Assembly: GCA_021810205.1 (NCBI GenBank)
Contig: JAJZJC010000001.1
Span: 8,533-72,532 of the forward strand
Length of the DNA stretch: 64,000 nt
Direction of reading: 5' to 3'
DNA from: Actinomycetes bacterium
Lineage (GTDB): Bacteria; Actinomycetota; Acidimicrobiia; Acidimicrobiales; RAAP-2
Positions within the stretch are counted from its first letter, which is position 1. Every line of letters begins with the position of its first letter. The position numbers and the translations under genes were made by a program. Below, piece by piece: positions 36,368-57,597 of the stretch. The notes under the pieces are model-generated. The model did not search any database. It was not told the DNA's origin and worked only from the letters and a program-made list of their open reading frames with translations.

Positions 36368-37084
36368 TCATGCGGACTTCCCGCCTGCTTCGTCGTCCCG
36401 CGCGTGTGCGAGGGCAGCGTCGGCGTCGTCACGATGGAGGAGCCCGCGCAGGCGTCCCTCGGGGTCGGTGACGAGGATCGCAACGGCCTTGCGTTCGTGC
36501 ATGCGGCCGACGAGCTCGTGCAGGTCTTCGTGCGCACGCACGGTGGGTGGGCCGGCCCGCATGGCATCCACGGCGAGGGCGTGGTCATCGCCGGCCAGCG
36601 CGGCCTGGTCGAGGACGCCGAGCACGACGCCATCACCGGCAGTGACGATGCAGCGGTCCTCGCCGGATGCGGCGACACGTCGGCGCGCCGTGGCGACGGT
36701 GTCGTCGGGCGTGCACGTGGGGACGCCGGTGCGTGCCACGGCACCGGGGCGCAACGGCGGCACTGCGGCACCCTCGGTTGGGAGCCCCGCGGCCAGCCAG
36801 TCGGTCTTGCCGGCGGTGTAGTCGAAGACCGTGCTGAAGCCGAGCGTCTCGAGCCGACACGCGGCTCGCGGGCTCATGTCTCAAAGACCATCCCAGCAGT
36901 AGACGATCACTGGGCGTGCCCGGTCGAGCCCAGCGATCGTCTCGGGTCCGAGCGTCTTCAGCGGGATGCTGATGGCCCCGGGGAGGTGCTCGTCTTCGTA
37001 CTCGGCAGCTGGCAGCACCTCGACCAACTGCGCCCCCTGCGCCATCAAGCGGCGAACGTCGTCCCGATGCACCGAGCCGGTCAT
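36368..37084 (-). CDS. Rhodanese-CBS pair protein interrupted by one in-frame TGA (36883-36881): candidate selenoprotein, or a nonsense-disrupted gene
   Basis: ORFs 36881..37084 and 36368..36877 share one frame. The joined sequence reads ...[11 protein letters not shown][TGA][37 protein letters not shown] followed by two CBS motifs. The TGA aligns with the second Cys of YCRGPLCLLAPEA in the paralogous rhodanese at 39878..40642. Confidence 0.55.
36837..36875 (-). other. SECIS-like stem-loop downstream of the in-frame TGA
   Basis: RNA: UGA-GACAU-GAGCC-CG-CGAGCCG-CGUGU-CGGCUCG-AGACGCUC-GGCUU. The 7-bp upper helix starts 13 nt after UGA, the apical loop CGUGU lies 20-24 nt after UGA, and there is a 5-bp lower helix. 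Confidence 0.35.
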
Positions 37085-37095
37085 CGGTCAGGTTC

Positions 37096-37407
37096 CTACC
37101 CGGCAGTGAGGGCGGCCACGATCTGATCGACCGAGGGAGCCCCTTCGGAGCCGGTCTCGCTGCGATAGATGCGGCAGGCGAACGCCGGAGGAGTCCCGGC
37201 CGTCGTGAAGAGGTCGACGCCGTCGATGAGCACGGCCGGAGAGCCGTGGAAGTTGCGCCGGCTGGCCTCGTCCGCATCGGCGACCTCTTCGACCAGGACT
37301 CGAGGAGCAGGACCGGAGAGCCGCGCGAGAGCGTCGGCGAGCCGCTGGCGGACCAGGGCGACGTTTGGGCACCCTGGGGTGTGCAAGATGGTGATCGTGT
37401 CGGCCAT
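37096..37407 (-). CDS. Thioredoxin-fold (glutaredoxin-like) small protein
   Basis: ITILHTPGCPNV ... GSPAVLIDGVDLF has the beta-alpha-beta Cys-Pro layout of Trx-fold proteins. It is the first gene of the MerR-controlled minus-strand unit. Confidence 0.55.
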   Translation of the reverse strand: MADTITILHTPGCPNVALVRQRLADALARLSGPAPRVLVEEVADADEASRRNFHGSPAVLIDGVDLFTTAGTPPAFACRIYRSETGSEGAPSVDQIVAALTAG

Positions 37408-37410
37408 GTA

Positions 37411-37450
37411 CCGAGCCTAAAGCCTCCCCTCCAGGGGAGAGTCAAGGGCT
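37411..37450 (-). promoter_or_regulatory. MerR-type promoter/operator: TTGACT, a 19-20-bp spacer containing a dyad, then TAGGCT
   Basis: Minus strand reads cTTGACTCTCCCCTGGAGGGGAGGCTTTAGGCTcgg. The dyad CTCCCCT-GG-AGGGGAG sits inside an over-long spacer, which is the hallmark of MerR-family activated promoters. It lies between divergent merR and the Trx-fold gene. Confidence 0.5.
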
Positions 37451-37468
37451 AGCGTGGTGACGATGGCG

Positions 37469-37870
37469 ATGAGAATCGGCGAGCTCGCCGAGCGAGTGGG
37501 CACGTCGGTCAAGACGATCCGCTACTACGACCGCATCGGCGTGCTGTGCCCGGAGGAGCGCAGCGAGTCCGGCTACCGCCTCTACGGAGAAGACGCCCTC
37601 GATCGCTACCGGTTCGTGCGCGCCGCCCAGGCGGTCGGGCTGCGCCTCGGAGAGATCCGAGAGGCCATCGCACTTCGGGACCGGGGCGAGACGCCATGTG
37701 GCTTCGTGGTGGACCTGATCGGGCGCCGGGCCGCCGAGCTCGATGCCCGCATCGCCGAGCTGGTGGCGCTGCGCGACGAGCTGCGAGGCCTCGATCGGCG
37801 GGCACGACGACTCGATCCTCGCCGCTGCGACCCGCGGCTCGTCTGTCACGTCATCGATCCAGGGTCTTGA
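37469..37870 (+). CDS. MerR-family (heavy-metal/redox-responsive type) transcriptional regulator
   Basis: MRIGELAERVGTSVKTIRYYDRIGVL....RSESGYRLY is the MerR HTH. A coiled-coil dimerisation helix and C-terminal Cys residues follow. Alternative upstream starts at 37454 and 37463. Confidence 0.85.
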   Translation: MRIGELAERVGTSVKTIRYYDRIGVLCPEERSESGYRLYGEDALDRYRFVRAAQAVGLRLGEIREAIALRDRGETPCGFVVDLIGRRAAELDARIAELVALRDELRGLDRRARRLDPRRCDPRLVCHVIDPGS

Positions 37871-37939: not shown

Positions 37940-39157
37940 TCACCATCCGAGTGCCGTCGGCACCAACTTCCCTCGCCGGGCGAAGGCCAGGTAGGCGCGC
38001 TCGAAGGCCATCTTGGCGATGAGCCACTGCCGTCCGTCGGAGACCGAAGGGATGCGGTTGCGTGGTGGGCGGACAGGGTCGACGGCGAGGTAGGCGGCGC
38101 GGTCGCCCATGCCGAGGATGCAGCGCGCCGACAGCTCGTCGGTGGGGGCTTCGTGGCCCTCGAGGCGCGCCGCGAGGTCGGCGGCGGCGATCTTCGCCAT
38201 CTGCTCGGTCATGTGGCCGGTCTTCGGGAAGTTGACCGGCACTGCGGTGGCGTCGACCGGGGGGAGGGCGACGGCGACCCCGACCGCGTAGACGCCATCG
38301 GCCGCCTGGTGGCGGTAGTGGTCGTCGACGGGCACGAAGCCCTTCGGGTTCGCCAGGCCGGGGCTGCTGGCGACCGCGTCGACGCCGGCGAGGGGCGGGA
38401 TGACGATCGAGCACACCGAGGAAGTGGGGGCCGCATCGGCCGTCTCCACGGACTCCCCCGTGATCCGCGTGATCGCGGCCGAGGTGCGATACGCGATGTC
38501 TCGCTCCTCGAGCGCGCCCTCGAGGAGCTGGCGGATCGTGCCGGCGCCGCCCATGCCCATGTGGCCGAGGAACGGCTCAGGGGTGAGCAGGCGTATCGGA
38601 ACCTGGTGGCGAAGCCCGCGGCGGCGCAGCAGATGGTCGAGCTCGAATGCAAGCTCGTAGACCGGCCCGATGCAGCTCGCTCCGGGCGCCGCGCCGACGA
38701 CGACAGGGCCGGGGTCGGCGAGCAGCGCTTGGATTGCGCCGGCGAGCTCGGTGGTCTCTTTCGCCGACATCGGCGAGTGGCCGGGCCCGTCGAAGGGACC
38801 TAGCCCCGGGACGGCCTCGTTGGCGCTGCGGTGCCCGGTAGCGACGACGAGGAAGTCGTATGGGTGATCGCCGGCGTCGGTCGAGACCACCTTGGAAGCG
38901 GTGTCGATGCCGGTGACGGTCTCCTGGGCGAAGCCCACGTGCTTGTTGGCAAGCGGGCCGGCGAGGGGGAAGGAGATCTGCTCGAGGCGCCGCCGGCCCA
39001 TCGCCACCCAGGGGAAGGACGGGACGAAGCGGAACTGGCCGTCTTTGGCAACGAGGGTGATCTCGGCGCGCTCGGGGGAGAGGTGCCGGCGCAGCTCGTA
39101 GGCGGTGGTCAGTCCGCCGAAGGAGCCGCCGACGATGACGATGCGCACGGCGCCCAT
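37940..39157 (-). CDS. sqr: Sulfide:quinone oxidoreductase (second paralogue, different SQR type)
   Basis: RIVIVGGSFGGLT, FVPSFPWVAMG, GASCIGPVYELAFE, GFVPVDDHYR, VYAVGVAV and KTGHMTEQMA are typical of FCSD/SQR flavoproteins. The start overlaps the dsrE stop. Confidence 0.85.
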   Translation of the reverse strand: MGAVRIVIVGGSFGGLTTAYELRRHLSPERAEITLVAKDGQFRFVPSFPWVAMGRRRLEQISFPLAGPLANKHVGFAQETVTGIDTASKVVSTDAGDHPYDFLVVATGHRSANEAVPGLGPFDGPGHSPMSAKETTELAGAIQALLADPGPVVVGAAPGASCIGPVYELAFELDHLLRRRGLRHQVPIRLLTPEPFLGHMGMGGAGTIRQLLEGALEERDIAYRTSAAITRITGESVETADAAPTSSVCSIVIPPLAGVDAVASSPGLANPKGFVPVDDHYRHQAADGVYAVGVAVALPPVDATAVPVNFPKTGHMTEQMAKIAAADLAARLEGHEAPTDELSARCILGMGDRAAYLAVDPVRPPRNRIPSVSDGRQWLIAKMAFERAYLAFARRGKLVPTALGW

Positions 39158-39507
39158 CAGAAGCTCACCACCTTGTCGGCCCAGATCGTCCAGTCGGTCA
39201 CCTCTTCCAAGGTGGAGCGACGGGCGCCGTCGACGAGCAGCTCGTCAGCGAGTCCCCGGGCGTCCATGCACGTGCCGCAGCAGCCGATCTCCCCGCCGTG
39301 GCGGATGACAGCGGTGACCATGCGGTCGAGGTGGTAGTAGCCGTCGGGAACCTTCTGGTTTCCGATCGCGCAGCCGACGGCGTCGCCGAAGAGGAAAACC
39401 CGCACCTCGACCCCCTCGCGTTTGGAGAGCGCGCCGGCGAGGCGCAGCCCGTTGTAGGAGCGCTCAGTGCCGTAGGGCGGGTCGTTCAAGACGACGAGGA
39501 TCTTCAT
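39157..39507 (-). CDS. DsrE/DsrF-like sulfur-relay family protein
   Basis: MKILVVLNDPPYGTERSYNGLRLA......V.VFLFGDAV and CGTCMDARG match DsrE-family motifs. AAGGAG lies upstream of the ATG at 39507. Confidence 0.85.
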   Translation of the reverse strand: MKILVVLNDPPYGTERSYNGLRLAGALSKREGVEVRVFLFGDAVGCAIGNQKVPDGYYHLDRMVTAVIRHGGEIGCCGTCMDARGLADELLVDGARRSTLEEVTDWTIWADKVVSF

Positions 39508-39878
39508 TGGGGCGCTCCTTCGCTTGTACTGGATCCGTTGGCCGTGCTGGATCTGGTCGGTGACGGAGTGGTGGGGACAGGGGCCCGATGAGGCCAATCG
39601 CCTGGGCGGCGTCGATGTGGGCGAGCGTCCCACCGGTCCGAGCGCCGACAAAGAGCCCGGCGACGGCGATGAGGGCACCGGTCTCGTTCTGGACGGGCTT
39701 CACGGCCATGCGTGCCACCCCGTCTCGGGGCGAGGCAAGCCCGGCGACGAGTGGCAGGCGACAGCGCGCCAACAACTCGGATTACGAGGCTGTTGGGCAT
39801 CATGGCCCGTGCGGCCCCGGGCAAGATCGACGCCGCCGCAAATTGGTCGAAGAAGCCGACGCGCAACCGTTCGCTCAT
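39504..39878 (-). CDS. Unresolved ORF between arsR-rhodanese and dsrE; possibly frameshifted small membrane protein
   Basis: The ATG at 39878 overlaps the upstream TGA (TGATG) and the TGA at 39504 overlaps the dsrE ATG (ATGA). The central third looks non-coding in this frame, while another frame is GC3-rich and membrane-like. Confidence 0.3.
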   Translation of the reverse strand: MSERLRVGFFDQFAAASILPGAARAMMPNSLVIRVVGALSPATRRRACLAPRRGGTHGREARPERDRCPHRRRRALCRRSDRWDARPHRRRPGDWPHRAPVPTTPSPTRSSTANGSSTSEGAPQ

Positions 39879-40642
39879 CACGGCCGCCCCCCAAGTGCTC
39901 GCGACGATCGCCGGGGGCGCCGGGGGCGCCGGGAGCTGCGAACATCGCCGTGCCCGCTCGATCCTGCGTCCGTGCCGCTGCCCTCTTCCACCGGGAGTCC
40001 GGCCTGGCGCCACTCGGGCAGGCCGTCTTCCAGACAGTGCGCGCGTCGCCCCCGGCCCCGAAGCAGCGCGACGGCCTCTGGGGCAAGGAGGCACAGCGGC
40101 CCTCGGCAGTAGGCGACGACCTCGACGGCGGGGTCGAGCTCGTCGAGGCGGGCCTCGAGGTGCTCCAAGGGGAGCGAGCGGGCACCGGGGATGTGCCCGG
40201 CCGAGTACTCCTCAGCGGGGCGCACATCGAGCACCACGACCTCCCCGGCCTGCACGCGAGCCAAGAGCTCGTCTCGGCTGACCCGCTCGGCGCCTGCCGC
40301 GTCGGTGCCGAGCGAGCGGAGGATCTGGTCGACCTCCGCGAGGCGGGCTCGGGCAAGATCGCCCAGCGCCCCGACGAAGCGACAGACCTCCTCGCCCGCG
40401 GCGCGGTAGTAGACGCGGGTCCCATCCCGGCGGGTCTCGACGAGGCGCGCCTGGCGCATCACCTGGAGGTGCGCGGAGGCCGTCGTGAGCTTGAGCCCCG
40501 TCGCCTCGGCGAGCGCCTCCACGCTGCGCTCGGCCTGGCAGAGCAGGTCGAGCAGCTCGATGCGCTTGGGGTGGACGACCACCTTGCCGATGCGCGCCAG
40601 CTGCTCGTAGAGATCGGTACGCCGTTCGGCATCATGCTCCAT
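39878..40642 (-). CDS. ArsR/SmtB-family HTH regulator fused to a rhodanese domain (persulfide-sensor-like)
   Basis: HPKRIELLDLLCQAERSVEALAEATGLKLTTASAHLQVMRQARLV is the ArsR wHTH. VVLDVRPAEEYSAGHIPGARSLP...VVAYCRGPLCLLAPEAVALL is the rhodanese part. Confidence 0.85.
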   Translation of the reverse strand: MEHDAERRTDLYEQLARIGKVVVHPKRIELLDLLCQAERSVEALAEATGLKLTTASAHLQVMRQARLVETRRDGTRVYYRAAGEEVCRFVGALGDLARARLAEVDQILRSLGTDAAGAERVSRDELLARVQAGEVVVLDVRPAEEYSAGHIPGARSLPLEHLEARLDELDPAVEVVAYCRGPLCLLAPEAVALLRGRGRRAHCLEDGLPEWRQAGLPVEEGSGTDAGSSGHGDVRSSRRPRRPRRSSRALGGRP

Positions 40643-57277: not shown

Positions 57278-57597
57278 TGGAGTGGCCCGAAACCAGCCAC
57301 GGCGTCTTCGCTATCTCGGTCGCGGCCGAGCTGGCGGGTGTCCACCCCCAGACGCTGCGCATCTACGAGCGCGAAGGACTGGTCCAGCCAGCGCGCAGCG
57401 AGGGTGGCACCCGTCGCTACAGCGGCGAAGACGTCGAACGCCTGCGCCTCATCGCCGCGCTCACGGGGGACGGGCTCAACATCGCCGGGGTGAAAAAAGT
57501 CTTGGCCCTCCAACAAGAGCTCGCCAAGCTACGGGCCACGGTCGAGCACCTCGAGGAAGAGCTCGCACGAAGTCGCTCGAGGGCGCACACTCGGTAG
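57277..57597 (+). CDS. hspR: HspR heat-shock repressor (MerR family)
   Basis: VFAISVAAELAGVHPQTLRIYEREGLVQPARSEGGTRRYSGEDVERLRLI matches HspR. The ATG overlaps the J-protein stop (TGATG). Confidence 0.85.
   Translation: MEWPETSHGVFAISVAAELAGVHPQTLRIYEREGLVQPARSEGGTRRYSGEDVERLRLIAALTGDGLNIAGVKKVLALQQELAKLRATVEHLEEELARSRSRAHTR

What the first reader, a model, noticed from the sequence alone, without database searches (positions are those of the whole stretch)
36368..37084. In-frame TGA at the conserved rhodanese Cys column plus a SECIS-like hairpin: candidate selenocysteine rhodanese-CBS protein
- **One frame, one stop:** the listed ORFs 36881..37084 and 36368..36877 (minus strand) are in the same frame and are separated only by TGA (36883-36881) and one GAC codon.
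- **Read-through product:** reading through gives one rhodanese-CBS protein: ...[11 protein letters not shown][TGA][37 protein letters not shown], then two CBS motifs.
- **Alignment to a paralogue:** the paralogous rhodanese in this window (ArsR fusion) reads VVAYCRGPLCLLAPEAVALLRGRG, so the TGA aligns with a conserved Cys. A Cys/Sec pair at such a position is the classic signature of a selenoprotein.
- **Downstream structure:** the RNA can fold into a 5-bp lower helix (GAGCC/GGCUU), an internal loop, a perfect 7-bp upper helix (CGAGCCG/CGGCUCG) and a 5-nt apical loop CGUGU. The loop lies 20-24 nt after the UGA, within the spacing I recall for bacterial SECIS elements, and has G at its second position.
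- **Prior reports:** I recall rhodanese-type sulfurtransferases being listed among predicted bacterial selenoprotein families, but I cannot verify that here.
- **Alternatives:** a recent TGC/TGT-to-TGA nonsense mutation, or a sequencing error.
Basis: partly seen in the sequence, partly recalled or inferred. Interest (0 to 1): 0.8.

Follow-up and report, generated by a model that had tools for sequence, protein, structure and literature searches.

The report
Unannotated selenocysteine rhodanese-CBS gene
The in-frame TGA is almost certainly a selenocysteine codon in a rhodanese-CBS protein that is widespread in soil Actinomycetota and Chloroflexota, is annotated in public genomes as two separate small genes, and is absent from the selenoprotein catalogues I could check.

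Summary
On the minus strand, 37084..36368 is one reading frame interrupted only by TGA at 36883-36881. Read through, it gives a rhodanese domain plus a CBS pair.

- **Conservation:** the TGA is not a mutation or an error. 155 of 160 homologous loci fetched from species-representative genomes and soil metagenomes have TGA at exactly this column. They span four phyla and include cultured Micromonospora and Pseudonocardia. The sampling favours relatives of the query.
- **Cys homologues:** DNA-verified homologues (for example Streptomyces) carry TGC or TGT at this column.
- **Position:** the column is the second Cys of a C-X4-C active-site loop, so the motif here is C-X4-U.
- **SECIS:** a 7-bp hairpin with a 5-nt loop (36850-36868) starts 12 nt after the UGA and meets every published bacterial SECIS criterion. 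Its synonymous sites are nearly frozen in 147 distinct TGA genes, while neighbouring codons vary freely.
- **Genetic code:** TGA is still the ordinary stop in these genes.
- **Annotation:** RefSeq annotates the two halves separately. No NCBIfam model and none of the five rhodanese forms in a 2026 selenoprotein review matches.
- **Open point:** Sec machinery in the same genome could not be tested; only genus-level literature supports it.
- **Context:** a recurrent MerR / MerB-like / DF-protein neighbourhood hints at a metal-detoxification role.

The parts
36368..37084 (-). Complete coding sequence of the rhodanese-CBS selenoprotein candidate: 238 codons including the Sec codon, then the terminator
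   Evidence: Single frame with one internal TGA. Pfam Rhodanese and two CBS matches. Full-length Cys homologues align end to end.
36881..36883 (-). UGA read as selenocysteine (residue 68), last position of the C63-W-D-G-L-U68 active-site loop
   Evidence: TGA at this column in 155 of 160 fetched homologous loci. TGC or TGT in DNA-verified Cys forms. Aligns with the second Cys of YCRGPLC and YCWGPAC.
36850..36868 (-). SECIS-like hairpin. Stem 36862-36868 pairs with 36850-36856 (7 bp). Apical loop CGUGU lies at 36857-36861. The hairpin starts 12 nt after the UGA.
   Evidence: 96.7% of cells pair over 139 distinct sequences and all variation is wobble-compatible. Synonymous sites are nearly frozen. 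Folds at -10.8 kcal/mol. Meets the bSECIS criteria quoted in PMC13188914.
36791..37063 (-). Rhodanese domain (aa 8-98), interrupted by the UGA
   Evidence: PF00581, 47.8 bits. Closest solved relative is BH2092 (3NHV), both by profile and by fold of a Cys homologue (rmsd 1.4-1.5 A).
36410..36757 (-). CBS pair (about aa 110-225)
   Evidence: PF00571, two stretches. The model of a Cys homologue matches nucleotide-binding CBS pairs such as CBSX2-AMP, AcuB and MgtE.
36368..36370 (-). True terminator of the gene, also TGA
   Evidence: Sequence GCA TGA. 121 of 144 TGA-form genes end in TGA. TGA is therefore not reassigned in these genomes.
37096..37407 (-). Upstream co-oriented gene: a 103-aa two-Cys thioredoxin-fold protein related to the 'DF family (seleno)protein'. 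Its stop lies 11 nt before the rhodanese ATG.
   Evidence: NF049942 at 59.2 bits (cut-off 70) and PF13192 weak. The orthologue in L081 scores 103 bits. Found upstream in 27 of 81 informative TGA loci.
37414..37445 (-). MerR-type promoter for the DF / rhodanese-CBS operon. -35 TTGACT at 37440-37445, perfect dyad CTCCCCT/AGGGGAG at 37424-37439, -10 TAGGCT at 37414-37419, spacer 20 nt.
   Evidence: Sequence and inverted repeat. Conserved in L001, L002, L016 and L020. The standard sigma-70 scan missed it because it allows only 16-18 nt spacers. That this architecture is typical of the MerR family is established knowledge, not a test run here.
37454..37870 (+). Divergent metal-type MerR-family regulator
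   Evidence: PF13411, PF09278 and PF00376. ZntR, CadR, MerR and CueR models score 78-87 bits, all below their cut-offs.

Best explanation
The region 37084..36368 (minus strand) is one gene for a ~25 kDa selenoprotein. It has an N-terminal rhodanese domain whose active-site loop reads C63-X4-U68, followed by a CBS pair.

**Decoding**
- During translation the UGA at 36883-36881 is read as selenocysteine.
- The mRNA hairpin at 36850-36868 (7-bp stem, loop CGUGU) starts 12 nt downstream of the UGA. In the standard bacterial mechanism SelB-GTP carrying Sec-tRNA(Sec) binds such a hairpin and delivers it to the ribosome.
- Shown here: the conserved TGA, the Cys/Sec pairing, the conserved hairpin, and ordinary use of TGA as a stop in the same genes.
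- Inferred: SelB binding and actual selenium insertion.

**Protein function (inferred)**
- The canonical rhodanese Cys and the Sec five residues later lie in the same loop. They probably act as a thiol/selenol pair, either forming a selenenylsulfide or chelating a soft metal, rather than acting as a simple persulfide carrier.
- The CBS pair probably binds an adenosine-type ligand and regulates the catalytic domain.

**Operon context**
- In this window the gene is the second gene of a two-gene operon, after a DF-type thioredoxin-fold protein.
- The operon is driven by a MerR-type promoter with a divergent metal-type MerR regulator.
- In related genomes a MerB-like lyase gene joins the cluster.
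- The likeliest role is therefore mercury/organometal or reactive-sulfur stress defence.
For: **1. Conserved TGA**
- All 23 close protein hits (60-100% identity) begin at [10 protein letters not shown], directly after the stop.
- Their DNA shows [18 protein letters not shown], preceded by a separately called 47-67 aa rhodanese ORF.
- 76 of 80 species-representative genome loci and 79 of 80 metagenome loci have TGA at this column.
- The taxa are Actinomycetota (Micromonospora, Pseudonocardia, Acidiferrimicrobium, Gaiellales, Thermoleophilia), Chloroflexota, Dormibacterota and Rokubacteria.

**2. Cys homologues**
- 88 full-length proteins have Cys at this column.
- Ten of them were verified as TGC or TGT on DNA.
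- Nine proteins with 'W' are TGA translated under code 4; two of these were checked on DNA.

**3. RNA-level constraint in 147 distinct TGA genes**
- Hairpin codons: GCC 143/147, GCG 147/147, CGG 146/147, CTC 143/147 (the other 4 are CTT). The first Arg codon ends in a purine in 146/147.
- Elsewhere in the same genes the frequencies are GCC 0.48, GCG 0.36, CGG 0.36, CGC 0.36 and CTC 0.43.
- The flanking Ser, Pro, Glu, Leu and Gly codons vary freely.
- The helix is 96.7% paired, and every change is A-U to G-U or G-C to G-U.

**4. SECIS criteria**
- The published criteria are a 3-9 nt loop, a 4-16 bp stem, G within the first two loop positions, 16-37 nt spacing and MFE <= -7.5 kcal/mol (PMC13188914).
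- All are met: 5-nt loop, 7-bp stem, loop CGU.., 19-nt spacing, -10.8 kcal/mol.

**5. TGA is still a stop**
- The gene ends in TGA, as do 121 of 144 relatives.

**6. Taxonomic fit with the Sec trait**
- Isolates with TGA belong to genera recorded as SelD+/SelA+/SelB+: Micromonospora 5/5, Pseudonocardia 4/5, Thermomicrobiales 3/3.
- Isolates with TGC are Streptomyces, most of which lack the trait (Peng 2016, Table S1).

**7. Context**
- DF protein, MerB-like lyase or a MerR-family regulator lies within 3 kb in 32 of 81 informative loci.
- In P. nantongensis the gene order is merR, merB-like, DF, rhodanese(U)-CBS.
- The MerR-type promoter is conserved.
Against: - No selA, selB, selD, tRNA-Sec or fdh selenoprotein gene lies in the 64-kb window or in about 0.9 Mb of held related loci. 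Sec competence of the source organism is therefore unproven.
- The single ARAGORN tRNA-SeC call (L026) is a false positive.
- There is no compensatory (double-sided) covariation in the helix. It overlaps a protein motif (RAAxRLE) that is also conserved in Cys forms.
- Six of 10 Cys-form DNAs still carry the canonical hairpin codons. The hairpin is therefore not exclusive to TGA forms.
- Folding energy is not better than shuffles.
- No selenium incorporation has been shown for any member.
- The functional reading is context-based only, and 49 of 81 loci lack that context.
Confidence: 0.87

Rival explanations
1. The gene is a pseudogene or an assembly/sequencing error: a recent TGC/TGT-to-TGA change truncates the rhodanese.
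For: A single-base change from TGC or TGT gives TGA. Gene callers and RefSeq treat the locus as two ORFs.
Against: - The same TGA is present in 155 of 160 fetched loci from four phyla, down to about 47% protein identity.
- 16 independent contigs carry the identical gene.
- Both halves remain under protein-level conservation.
Confidence: 0.01
2. The locus holds two real, separately translated proteins. Translation stops at UGA and restarts at the AUG three bases later (UGA-GAC-AUG), giving a 67-aa half-rhodanese and a 169-aa CBS protein.
For: In the window, and in 91 of 147 distinct relatives, the second codon after the TGA is ATG. This is how all public annotations read the locus.
Against: - The position is Met or Leu in Cys forms as well.
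- In 35 of 147 TGA genes it is CTC, ATC, CTT, ATT, CTA, ATA or GTC, which are not start codons, and in 19 it is CTG.
- The cut would fall inside the active-site loop of a compact domain. That domain is modelled as one unit in the Cys homologue (pLDDT 92).
- The frozen synonymous sites downstream remain unexplained.
Confidence: 0.04
3. The UGA is read through without selenium. This could be near-cognate Trp or Cys insertion, or a local recoding signal other than SECIS, and would give a full-length non-seleno protein.
For: - Sec machinery was not shown for the source organism.
- The hairpin could stimulate read-through in general.
- Cys forms function with an ordinary Cys at this position.
Against: - A TGA kept at a redox Cys column, interleaved with Cys forms in a crude tree (at least 29 switches), is the standard Sec/Cys signature.
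- The hairpin fits the SelB-type consensus, including the loop G.
- The taxa that carry TGA match genera recorded as having the Sec trait.
- TGA is a normal stop in these genes.
Confidence: 0.07

Closest known systems
[quoted passage not shown]
   Same: It has a rhodanese domain with a Sec at the +5 position of the active-site loop. The TsoB model aligns to aa 28-106 here. It shares the spacing of the two redox residues.
   Different: - The score is 24.2 bits against a cut-off of 805.
- TsoB has Sec at both positions, whereas this protein has Cys then Sec.
- TsoB carries a DsbD-like fusion, whereas this protein carries a CBS pair.
- TsoB comes from different genomic neighbourhoods and taxa.
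Other catalogued rhodanese-type selenoproteins. In PMC13188914 these are form 1 (UxxS, WP_010941598.1, Geobacter), forms 2 and 4 (UxxG) and form 3 (rhodanese_LYCAU, NF041203, CxU). Earlier surveys list 'Sulfurtransferase COG0607/COG2897' from Sargasso and GOS data.
   Same: They have a PF00581 domain with an in-frame UGA in or near the active-site loop, Cys homologues and a coding-region SECIS.
   Different: - None is listed with a CxxxxU motif or a CBS fusion. 'CBS' does not occur in the review at all.
- NF041203 scores 15.8 bits against a cut-off of 115.
- The four residues U-D-M-S literally fit 'UxxS'. I could not obtain the Geobacter sequence, so identity with form 1 is untested.
BH2092 of Bacillus halodurans (PDB 3NHV/3O3W) and the rhodanese domain of ArsR-rhodanese fusions (YCRGPxC)
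   Same: They belong to the same C-X4-C single-domain rhodanese subfamily: YCWGPAC compared with YCWDGLU. The profile E-value is 1.5e-14 and the fold match has rmsd 1.4-1.5 A. A paralogue lies in this window.
   Different: They have Cys, not Sec, at +5 and no CBS pair. The function of BH2092 is unknown.
E. coli fdhF/fdnG-type bacterial SECIS
   Same: It is a hairpin inside the coding region just 3' of the UGA, with a small apical loop that has G near its 5' side. The spacing lies within 16-37 nt.
   Different: There is no sequence similarity and no bulged U. The stem here is built on the conserved peptide RAAxRL. SelB binding has not been tested.

Membership tests
Bacterial selenoprotein gene (Sec-UGA plus coding-region SECIS) | In-frame UGA inside an ORF that is conserved as protein on both sides | tested here: met
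   one frame, Pfam domains spanning the stop, and the coding GC pattern on both sides.
Bacterial selenoprotein gene (Sec-UGA plus coding-region SECIS) | Homologues with Cys aligned to the UGA | tested here: met
   88 proteins have Cys at the column. Ten were verified as TGC or TGT on DNA.
Bacterial selenoprotein gene (Sec-UGA plus coding-region SECIS) | UGA conserved at the same column in orthologues of other species | tested here: met
   76 of 80 genome loci and 79 of 80 metagenome loci.
Bacterial selenoprotein gene (Sec-UGA plus coding-region SECIS) | Stem-loop meeting the bSECIS consensus: loop 3-9 nt, stem 4-16 bp, G in the first two loop positions, 16-37 nt from the UGA, MFE <= -7.5 kcal/mol | tested here: met
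   Criteria from PMC13188914. Here the loop is 5 nt (CGUGU), the stem 7 bp, the spacer 19 nt and the energy -10.8 kcal/mol. The bSECISearch program itself was not run.
Bacterial selenoprotein gene (Sec-UGA plus coding-region SECIS) | selA, selB, selC (tRNA-Sec) and selD present in the same genome | not testable with these tools
   None found in the window or held loci. Support is at genus level only, from Peng 2016 Table S1.
Bacterial selenoprotein gene (Sec-UGA plus coding-region SECIS) | Selenium shown in the protein (75Se labelling or mass spectrometry) | not testable with these tools
   This needs an experiment.
Rhodanese-like domain (PF00581), C-X4-C subfamily | Domain match above the gathering score, with the catalytic Cys at the start of the active-site loop | tested here: met
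   47.8 bits against 22.2. C63 aligns with the catalytic Cys of solved rhodaneses and with YCWGPAC of 3NHV.
CBS pair (PF00571) | Two tandem CBS motifs above the gathering score | tested here: met
   47.3 bits against 24, two stretches. The fold of a Cys homologue matches CBS pairs.
TsoB selenoprotein (NF045694) | Model score above cut-off, UxxxxU motif and DsbD-like fusion | tested here: not met
   24.2 bits against 805. The motif here is CxxxxU and the C-terminal part is a CBS pair.
rhodanese_LYCAU (seleno)protein (NF041203) | Model score above cut-off and CxU motif | tested here: not met
   15.8 bits against 115. Sec lies at +5, not +2.
Rhodanese-like selenoprotein form 1 (UxxS, WP_010941598.1) | Sec at the same alignment column as the Geobacter protein | tested here: inconclusive
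   U-D-M-S fits the printed motif. The reference sequence and the original paper were not obtainable.

The most novel reading that the evidence does not exclude
This is a sixth, uncatalogued form of rhodanese selenoprotein (C-X4-U loop fused to a CBS pair). It is common in soil Actinomycetota, Chloroflexota and Dormibacterota and systematically mis-annotated as two genes. In this reading it is also a working component of MerR-controlled organometal/mercury modules (MerR, MerB-like lyase, DF thioredoxin-fold protein, rhodanese-U-CBS). Its Cys-Sec pair would serve as the high-affinity acceptor or hand-off site for Hg(II) or another soft metal released by the lyase.
Probability: 0.25. Interest if true: 0.75.

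Novelty: new member of a known kind. Interest (0 to 1): 0.62.

Why it matters
- **Catalogue:** if confirmed, this adds a widespread family to the bacterial selenoproteome. It would come from aerobic, high-GC soil lineages, where most catalogued organisms are credited with a single selenoprotein (Peng 2016 supplement).
- **Annotation:** it would correct a recurrent error, a 66-67-aa 'rhodanese-like' protein plus a 'CBS domain-containing protein', in RefSeq genomes of cultured Micromonospora, Pseudonocardia and Acidiferrimicrobium.
- **Experimental access:** those cultured strains make the claim directly testable.
- **Chemistry:** the Sec sits beside the catalytic Cys rather than replacing it. 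Only the UxxxxU protein TsoB shares this arrangement, which points to selenenylsulfide or metal-chelating chemistry in a rhodanese fold.
- **Biology:** the link to MerR, MerB-like and DF genes gives a concrete hypothesis connecting selenium use with mercury/organometal defence.

Tried and rejected
- **tRNA-SeC next to the gene in L026 (ARAGORN).** Rejected. It lies inside a 431-aa MFS-like ORF and Rfam finds nothing.
It is not conserved.
- **Thermodynamic significance.** z = -0.45, which is uninformative in 68% GC DNA.
- **Rfam.** No hits on the window at gathering thresholds, and only chance snoRNA hits on the region at E <= 10.
- **tblastn with E. coli SelA, SelB, SelD and FdnG against the window and all loci.** The only hit was a CysN-like GTPase in L004.
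- **Scan of the window for other split ORFs across TGA.** It returned only off-frame artefacts and, at the GC3 threshold used, did not flag this gene either, so it says little.
- **Looking up U-containing full-length proteins.** The tool refuses the letter U.
- **The original bSECISearch paper and Haft & Tolstoy 2025.** Neither is held.
- **Type III SQR selenoprotein subtype for the neighbouring 405-aa oxidoreductase.** It scores 103.8 bits against a cut-off of 525, so it is not a member.
- **Sec versus Cys ratio.** It cannot be estimated. The collection scans keep the 80 best matches and are biased, whereas the protein search favours unsplit (Cys) forms.
Full report
**Observation.** On the minus strand the ORFs 36881..37084 and 36368..36877 share one frame. 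They are separated only by TGA (36883-36881) and a GAC codon. Read through, the 238-codon product has a rhodanese domain (PF00581, aa 8-98, 47.8 bits) and two CBS motifs (PF00571, 47.3 bits). Codon-position GC on both sides of the TGA is typical of coding sequence in this window. BLASTP against the ArsR-rhodanese paralogue in the window aligns the TGA with the second Cys of YCRGPLC. A profile search of the PDB aligns it with the second Cys of YCWGPAC in BH2092 (3NHV). The motif is therefore C63-X4-U68: the candidate Sec lies five residues after the canonical catalytic Cys and does not replace it. The 7-bp helix CGAGCCG/CGGCUCG with loop CGUGU is present at 36850-36868, and the loop lies 20-24 nt after the UGA.

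**Is it more than chance or error?** A protein search returned 23 hits of 158-179 aa at 60-100% identity, and all of them begin at [10 protein letters not shown], immediately after the stop. Their DNA shows the same arrangement, [18 protein letters not shown], preceded by a separately called 47-67-aa rhodanese ORF. The identical gene occurs on 16 independent metagenome contigs.

A scan of species-representative genomes gave 80 loci. Of these, 76 have TGA at the column and 4 have TGC or TGT. A scan of metagenomes seeded with Cys forms gave 79 TGA and 1 TGC. The carriers include:
- Micromonospora sp. U21 and NPDC050200, Pseudonocardia nantongensis and Acidiferrimicrobium sp. IK;
- Streptosporangiaceae, Gaiellales and Thermoleophilia;
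- Chloroflexia/Thermomicrobiales and a Dehalococcoidia MAG;
- Dormibacterota and a Rokubacteria MAG.

Eighty-eight full-length homologues have Cys at the column and nine have 'W'. The two 'W' entries checked on DNA are TGA translated with code 4. Ten Cys forms were confirmed as TGC or TGT on DNA. These collection scans keep only the best 80 matches, and the protein search favours unsplit proteins. The true Sec:Cys ratio is therefore unknown. A crude NJ tree of 155 Sec and 95 Cys forms needs at least 29 switches, so the two states are interleaved.

**The hairpin.** In 147 distinct TGA genes the codons that form the stem are nearly invariant at synonymous sites:

| Stem codon | Count at the hairpin position | Frequency elsewhere in the same genes |
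|---|---|---|
| Ala GCC | 143/147 | 0.48 |
| Ala GCG | 147/147 | 0.36 |
| Arg CGG | 146/147 | 0.36 |
| Leu CTC | 143/147 (the other 4 are CTT) | 0.43 |
| first Arg, ending in a purine | 146/147 (CGC once) | CGC 0.36 |

The flanking Ser, Pro, Glu, Leu and Gly codons vary freely in the same alignment. On 139 distinct sequences the upper helix is 96.7% paired, and every substitution is wobble-compatible. There is no two-sided compensatory change.

The published bacterial SECIS model requires a 3-9-nt loop, a 4-16-bp stem, a G in the first two loop positions, 16-37 nt between UGA and loop, and MFE <= -7.5 kcal/mol (PMC13188914). The window hairpin has a 5-nt loop (CGUGU), a 7-bp stem, a 19-nt spacer and -10.8 kcal/mol.

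Three caveats apply:
- The hairpin overlaps the conserved peptide RAAxRLE.
- Six of 10 Cys-form DNAs still have the canonical hairpin codons. Relaxed codons (GCC or GCA for the second-Ala GCG, CGC for CGG, CTG for CTC) were seen only in Cys forms, apart from single deviant Sec genes at other hairpin positions. The counts are 144/147 against 6/10 canonical.
- The 71-nt segment is no more stable than shuffles, with z = -0.45.

**TGA is not reassigned.** This gene ends in TGA (36368-36370), as do 121 of 144 TGA-form relatives. Re-initiation at the ATG after the stop is not a general solution. That codon is a non-start codon in 35 of 147 genes and CTG in 19 more, and it is Met or Leu in Cys forms too.

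**Sec machinery.** None was found in the window or in about 0.9 Mb of held loci. There are no tRNAs and no Rfam hits in the window. E. coli SelA, SelB, SelD and FdnG gave no relevant tblastn hits. An ARAGORN tRNA-SeC call in L026 lies inside an MFS-like ORF, has no Rfam support, and is rejected.

Indirect support comes from Peng et al. 2016, Table S1. It lists SelD, SelA and SelB in 5 of 5 Micromonospora, 4 of 5 Pseudonocardia and 3 of 3 Thermomicrobiales genomes, while most Streptomyces lack them. This matches TGA in the first three groups and TGC in Streptomyces here. It remains the main untested link.

**Protein and context.** A Cys homologue (P0047) models confidently, with pLDDT 92.4 and pTM 0.82. 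Its N-terminal half superposes on BH2092 at rmsd 1.4-1.5 A. Its C-terminal half superposes on nucleotide-binding CBS pairs such as CBSX2-AMP, AcuB and MgtE. No solved structure has both domains.

In the window the gene follows, after an 11-nt gap, a 103-aa two-Cys thioredoxin-fold gene related to NCBIfam's 'DF family (seleno)protein' (59.2 bits, cut-off 70). The pair sits behind a MerR-type promoter: TTGACT, a 20-nt spacer containing the perfect dyad CTCCCCT/AGGGGAG, then TAGGCT. That promoter is conserved in relatives, and a metal-type MerR regulator lies divergent to it.

Among 81 distinct TGA loci with at least 1.5 kb upstream, 27 have a DF gene, 13 a MerB-like lyase gene, 13 a MerR-family gene, and 32 at least one of these. 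In Pseudonocardia nantongensis the order is IS110 transposase, merR (125.7 bits to TIGR02051, cut-off 150.85), merB-like, DF (103 bits), rhodanese(U)-CBS. Beyond the MerR gene the window carries an ArsR-rhodanese, DsrE-like and SQR-like cluster. The functional reading, a Cys/Sec redox or metal-binding pair acting in metal or reactive-sulfur defence, is inference from this context.

**Comparison with what is known.** Rhodanese-type selenoproteins have been predicted since 2005. A May 2026 review lists five forms, with motifs UxxS, UxxG, CxU, UxxG and UxxxxU (TsoB). None has a CxxxxU motif or a CBS fusion, and 'CBS' does not occur in the text. No paper in the library combines selenocysteine, rhodanese and CBS domain.

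No NCBIfam model reaches its cut-off: TsoB scores 24.2 against 805, and rhodanese_LYCAU 15.8 against 115. RefSeq annotates the halves as separate proteins. Examples are WP_210910265.1 plus WP_210910257.1 in Micromonospora sp. U21, and WP_405419928.1 plus WP_405419930.1 in Pseudonocardia.

The tetrapeptide U-D-M-S literally fits the 'UxxS' of form 1 (Geobacter WP_010941598.1). I could not obtain that sequence, so identity with form 1 is not excluded.

**Verdict.** The mechanism is ordinary bacterial Sec insertion. What is new is the family: a widespread, mis-annotated C-X4-U rhodanese-CBS protein, best classed as a new member of a known kind. Sec machinery in the same genome and selenium in the protein remain to be shown.

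Noticed in passing
window 37096-37407 (-): The gene immediately upstream is a two-Cys thioredoxin-fold protein related to NCBIfam NF049942 'DF family (seleno)protein'. That family was only named in 2025 from one Desulfosediminicola selenoprotein. All copies seen next to this gene have Cys, not TGA. The conserved motifs are (D/G)CPN, GSPT.R.DG and xCR(L/V)Y.
   Followed up: partly
window 37414-37445 (-); also L001, L002, L016, L020 upstream of their DF genes: A conserved MerR-type promoter lies here. It has TTGACT, a 20-nt spacer holding a perfect 7-nt dyad, then TAGGCT. The ATG follows about 7 nt downstream, so the transcript is near-leaderless. The standard promoter scan missed it because of the long spacer.
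   Followed up: partly
L081:188-4885 (Pseudonocardia nantongensis); L005:7827-10507; L043, L032, L054, L109, L114, L129, L142, L030, L039: A MerB-like organometal lyase gene lies directly upstream of the DF gene or of the rhodanese(U)-CBS gene in many relatives. In P. nantongensis the whole merR, merB-like, DF, rhodanese-CBS set follows an IS110 transposase. Cys-form loci L181 (MerB) and L180 (ArsR plus DF-like) share the context.
   Followed up: partly
window 37940-40642 (-): This is an ArsR-rhodanese (C-X4-C type), DsrE-like, SQR-like flavoprotein cluster, apparently a sulfide/persulfide module. It sits back to back with the MerR gene. The SQR-like protein scores only 103.8 bits against 525 for the 'type III SQR, selenoprotein subtype' model.
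   Followed up: partly
L026:1490-1572: ARAGORN calls a tRNA-SeC here, 1.1 kb from the rhodanese gene. It lies inside a 431-aa MFS-like ORF and Rfam finds nothing, so it is a false positive typical of high-GC DNA.
   Followed up: yes
proteins P0035, P0056, P0080, P0083, P0091, P0094, P0095, P0112, P0118; loci L013-L015: Nine JGI metagenome gene calls show Trp at the Sec column because the contigs were translated with genetic code 4. In L014 and L015 this also fused an upstream ORF across a second TGA.
   Followed up: yes
window 57316-57510: A second, weaker MerR-family tblastn hit (41% over 66 aa to the L081 MerR) lies elsewhere in the window.
   Followed up: no
L001:1802-4263; L002:378-1778; L004:8555-9199; L081:188-1561: Transposase genes (IS66, DDE_Tnp_1, IstB and IS110 types) lie within a few kb of the gene in several relatives. 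In L001 two of them are inserted between the DF gene and the rhodanese gene. This suggests the module is mobile.
   Followed up: no
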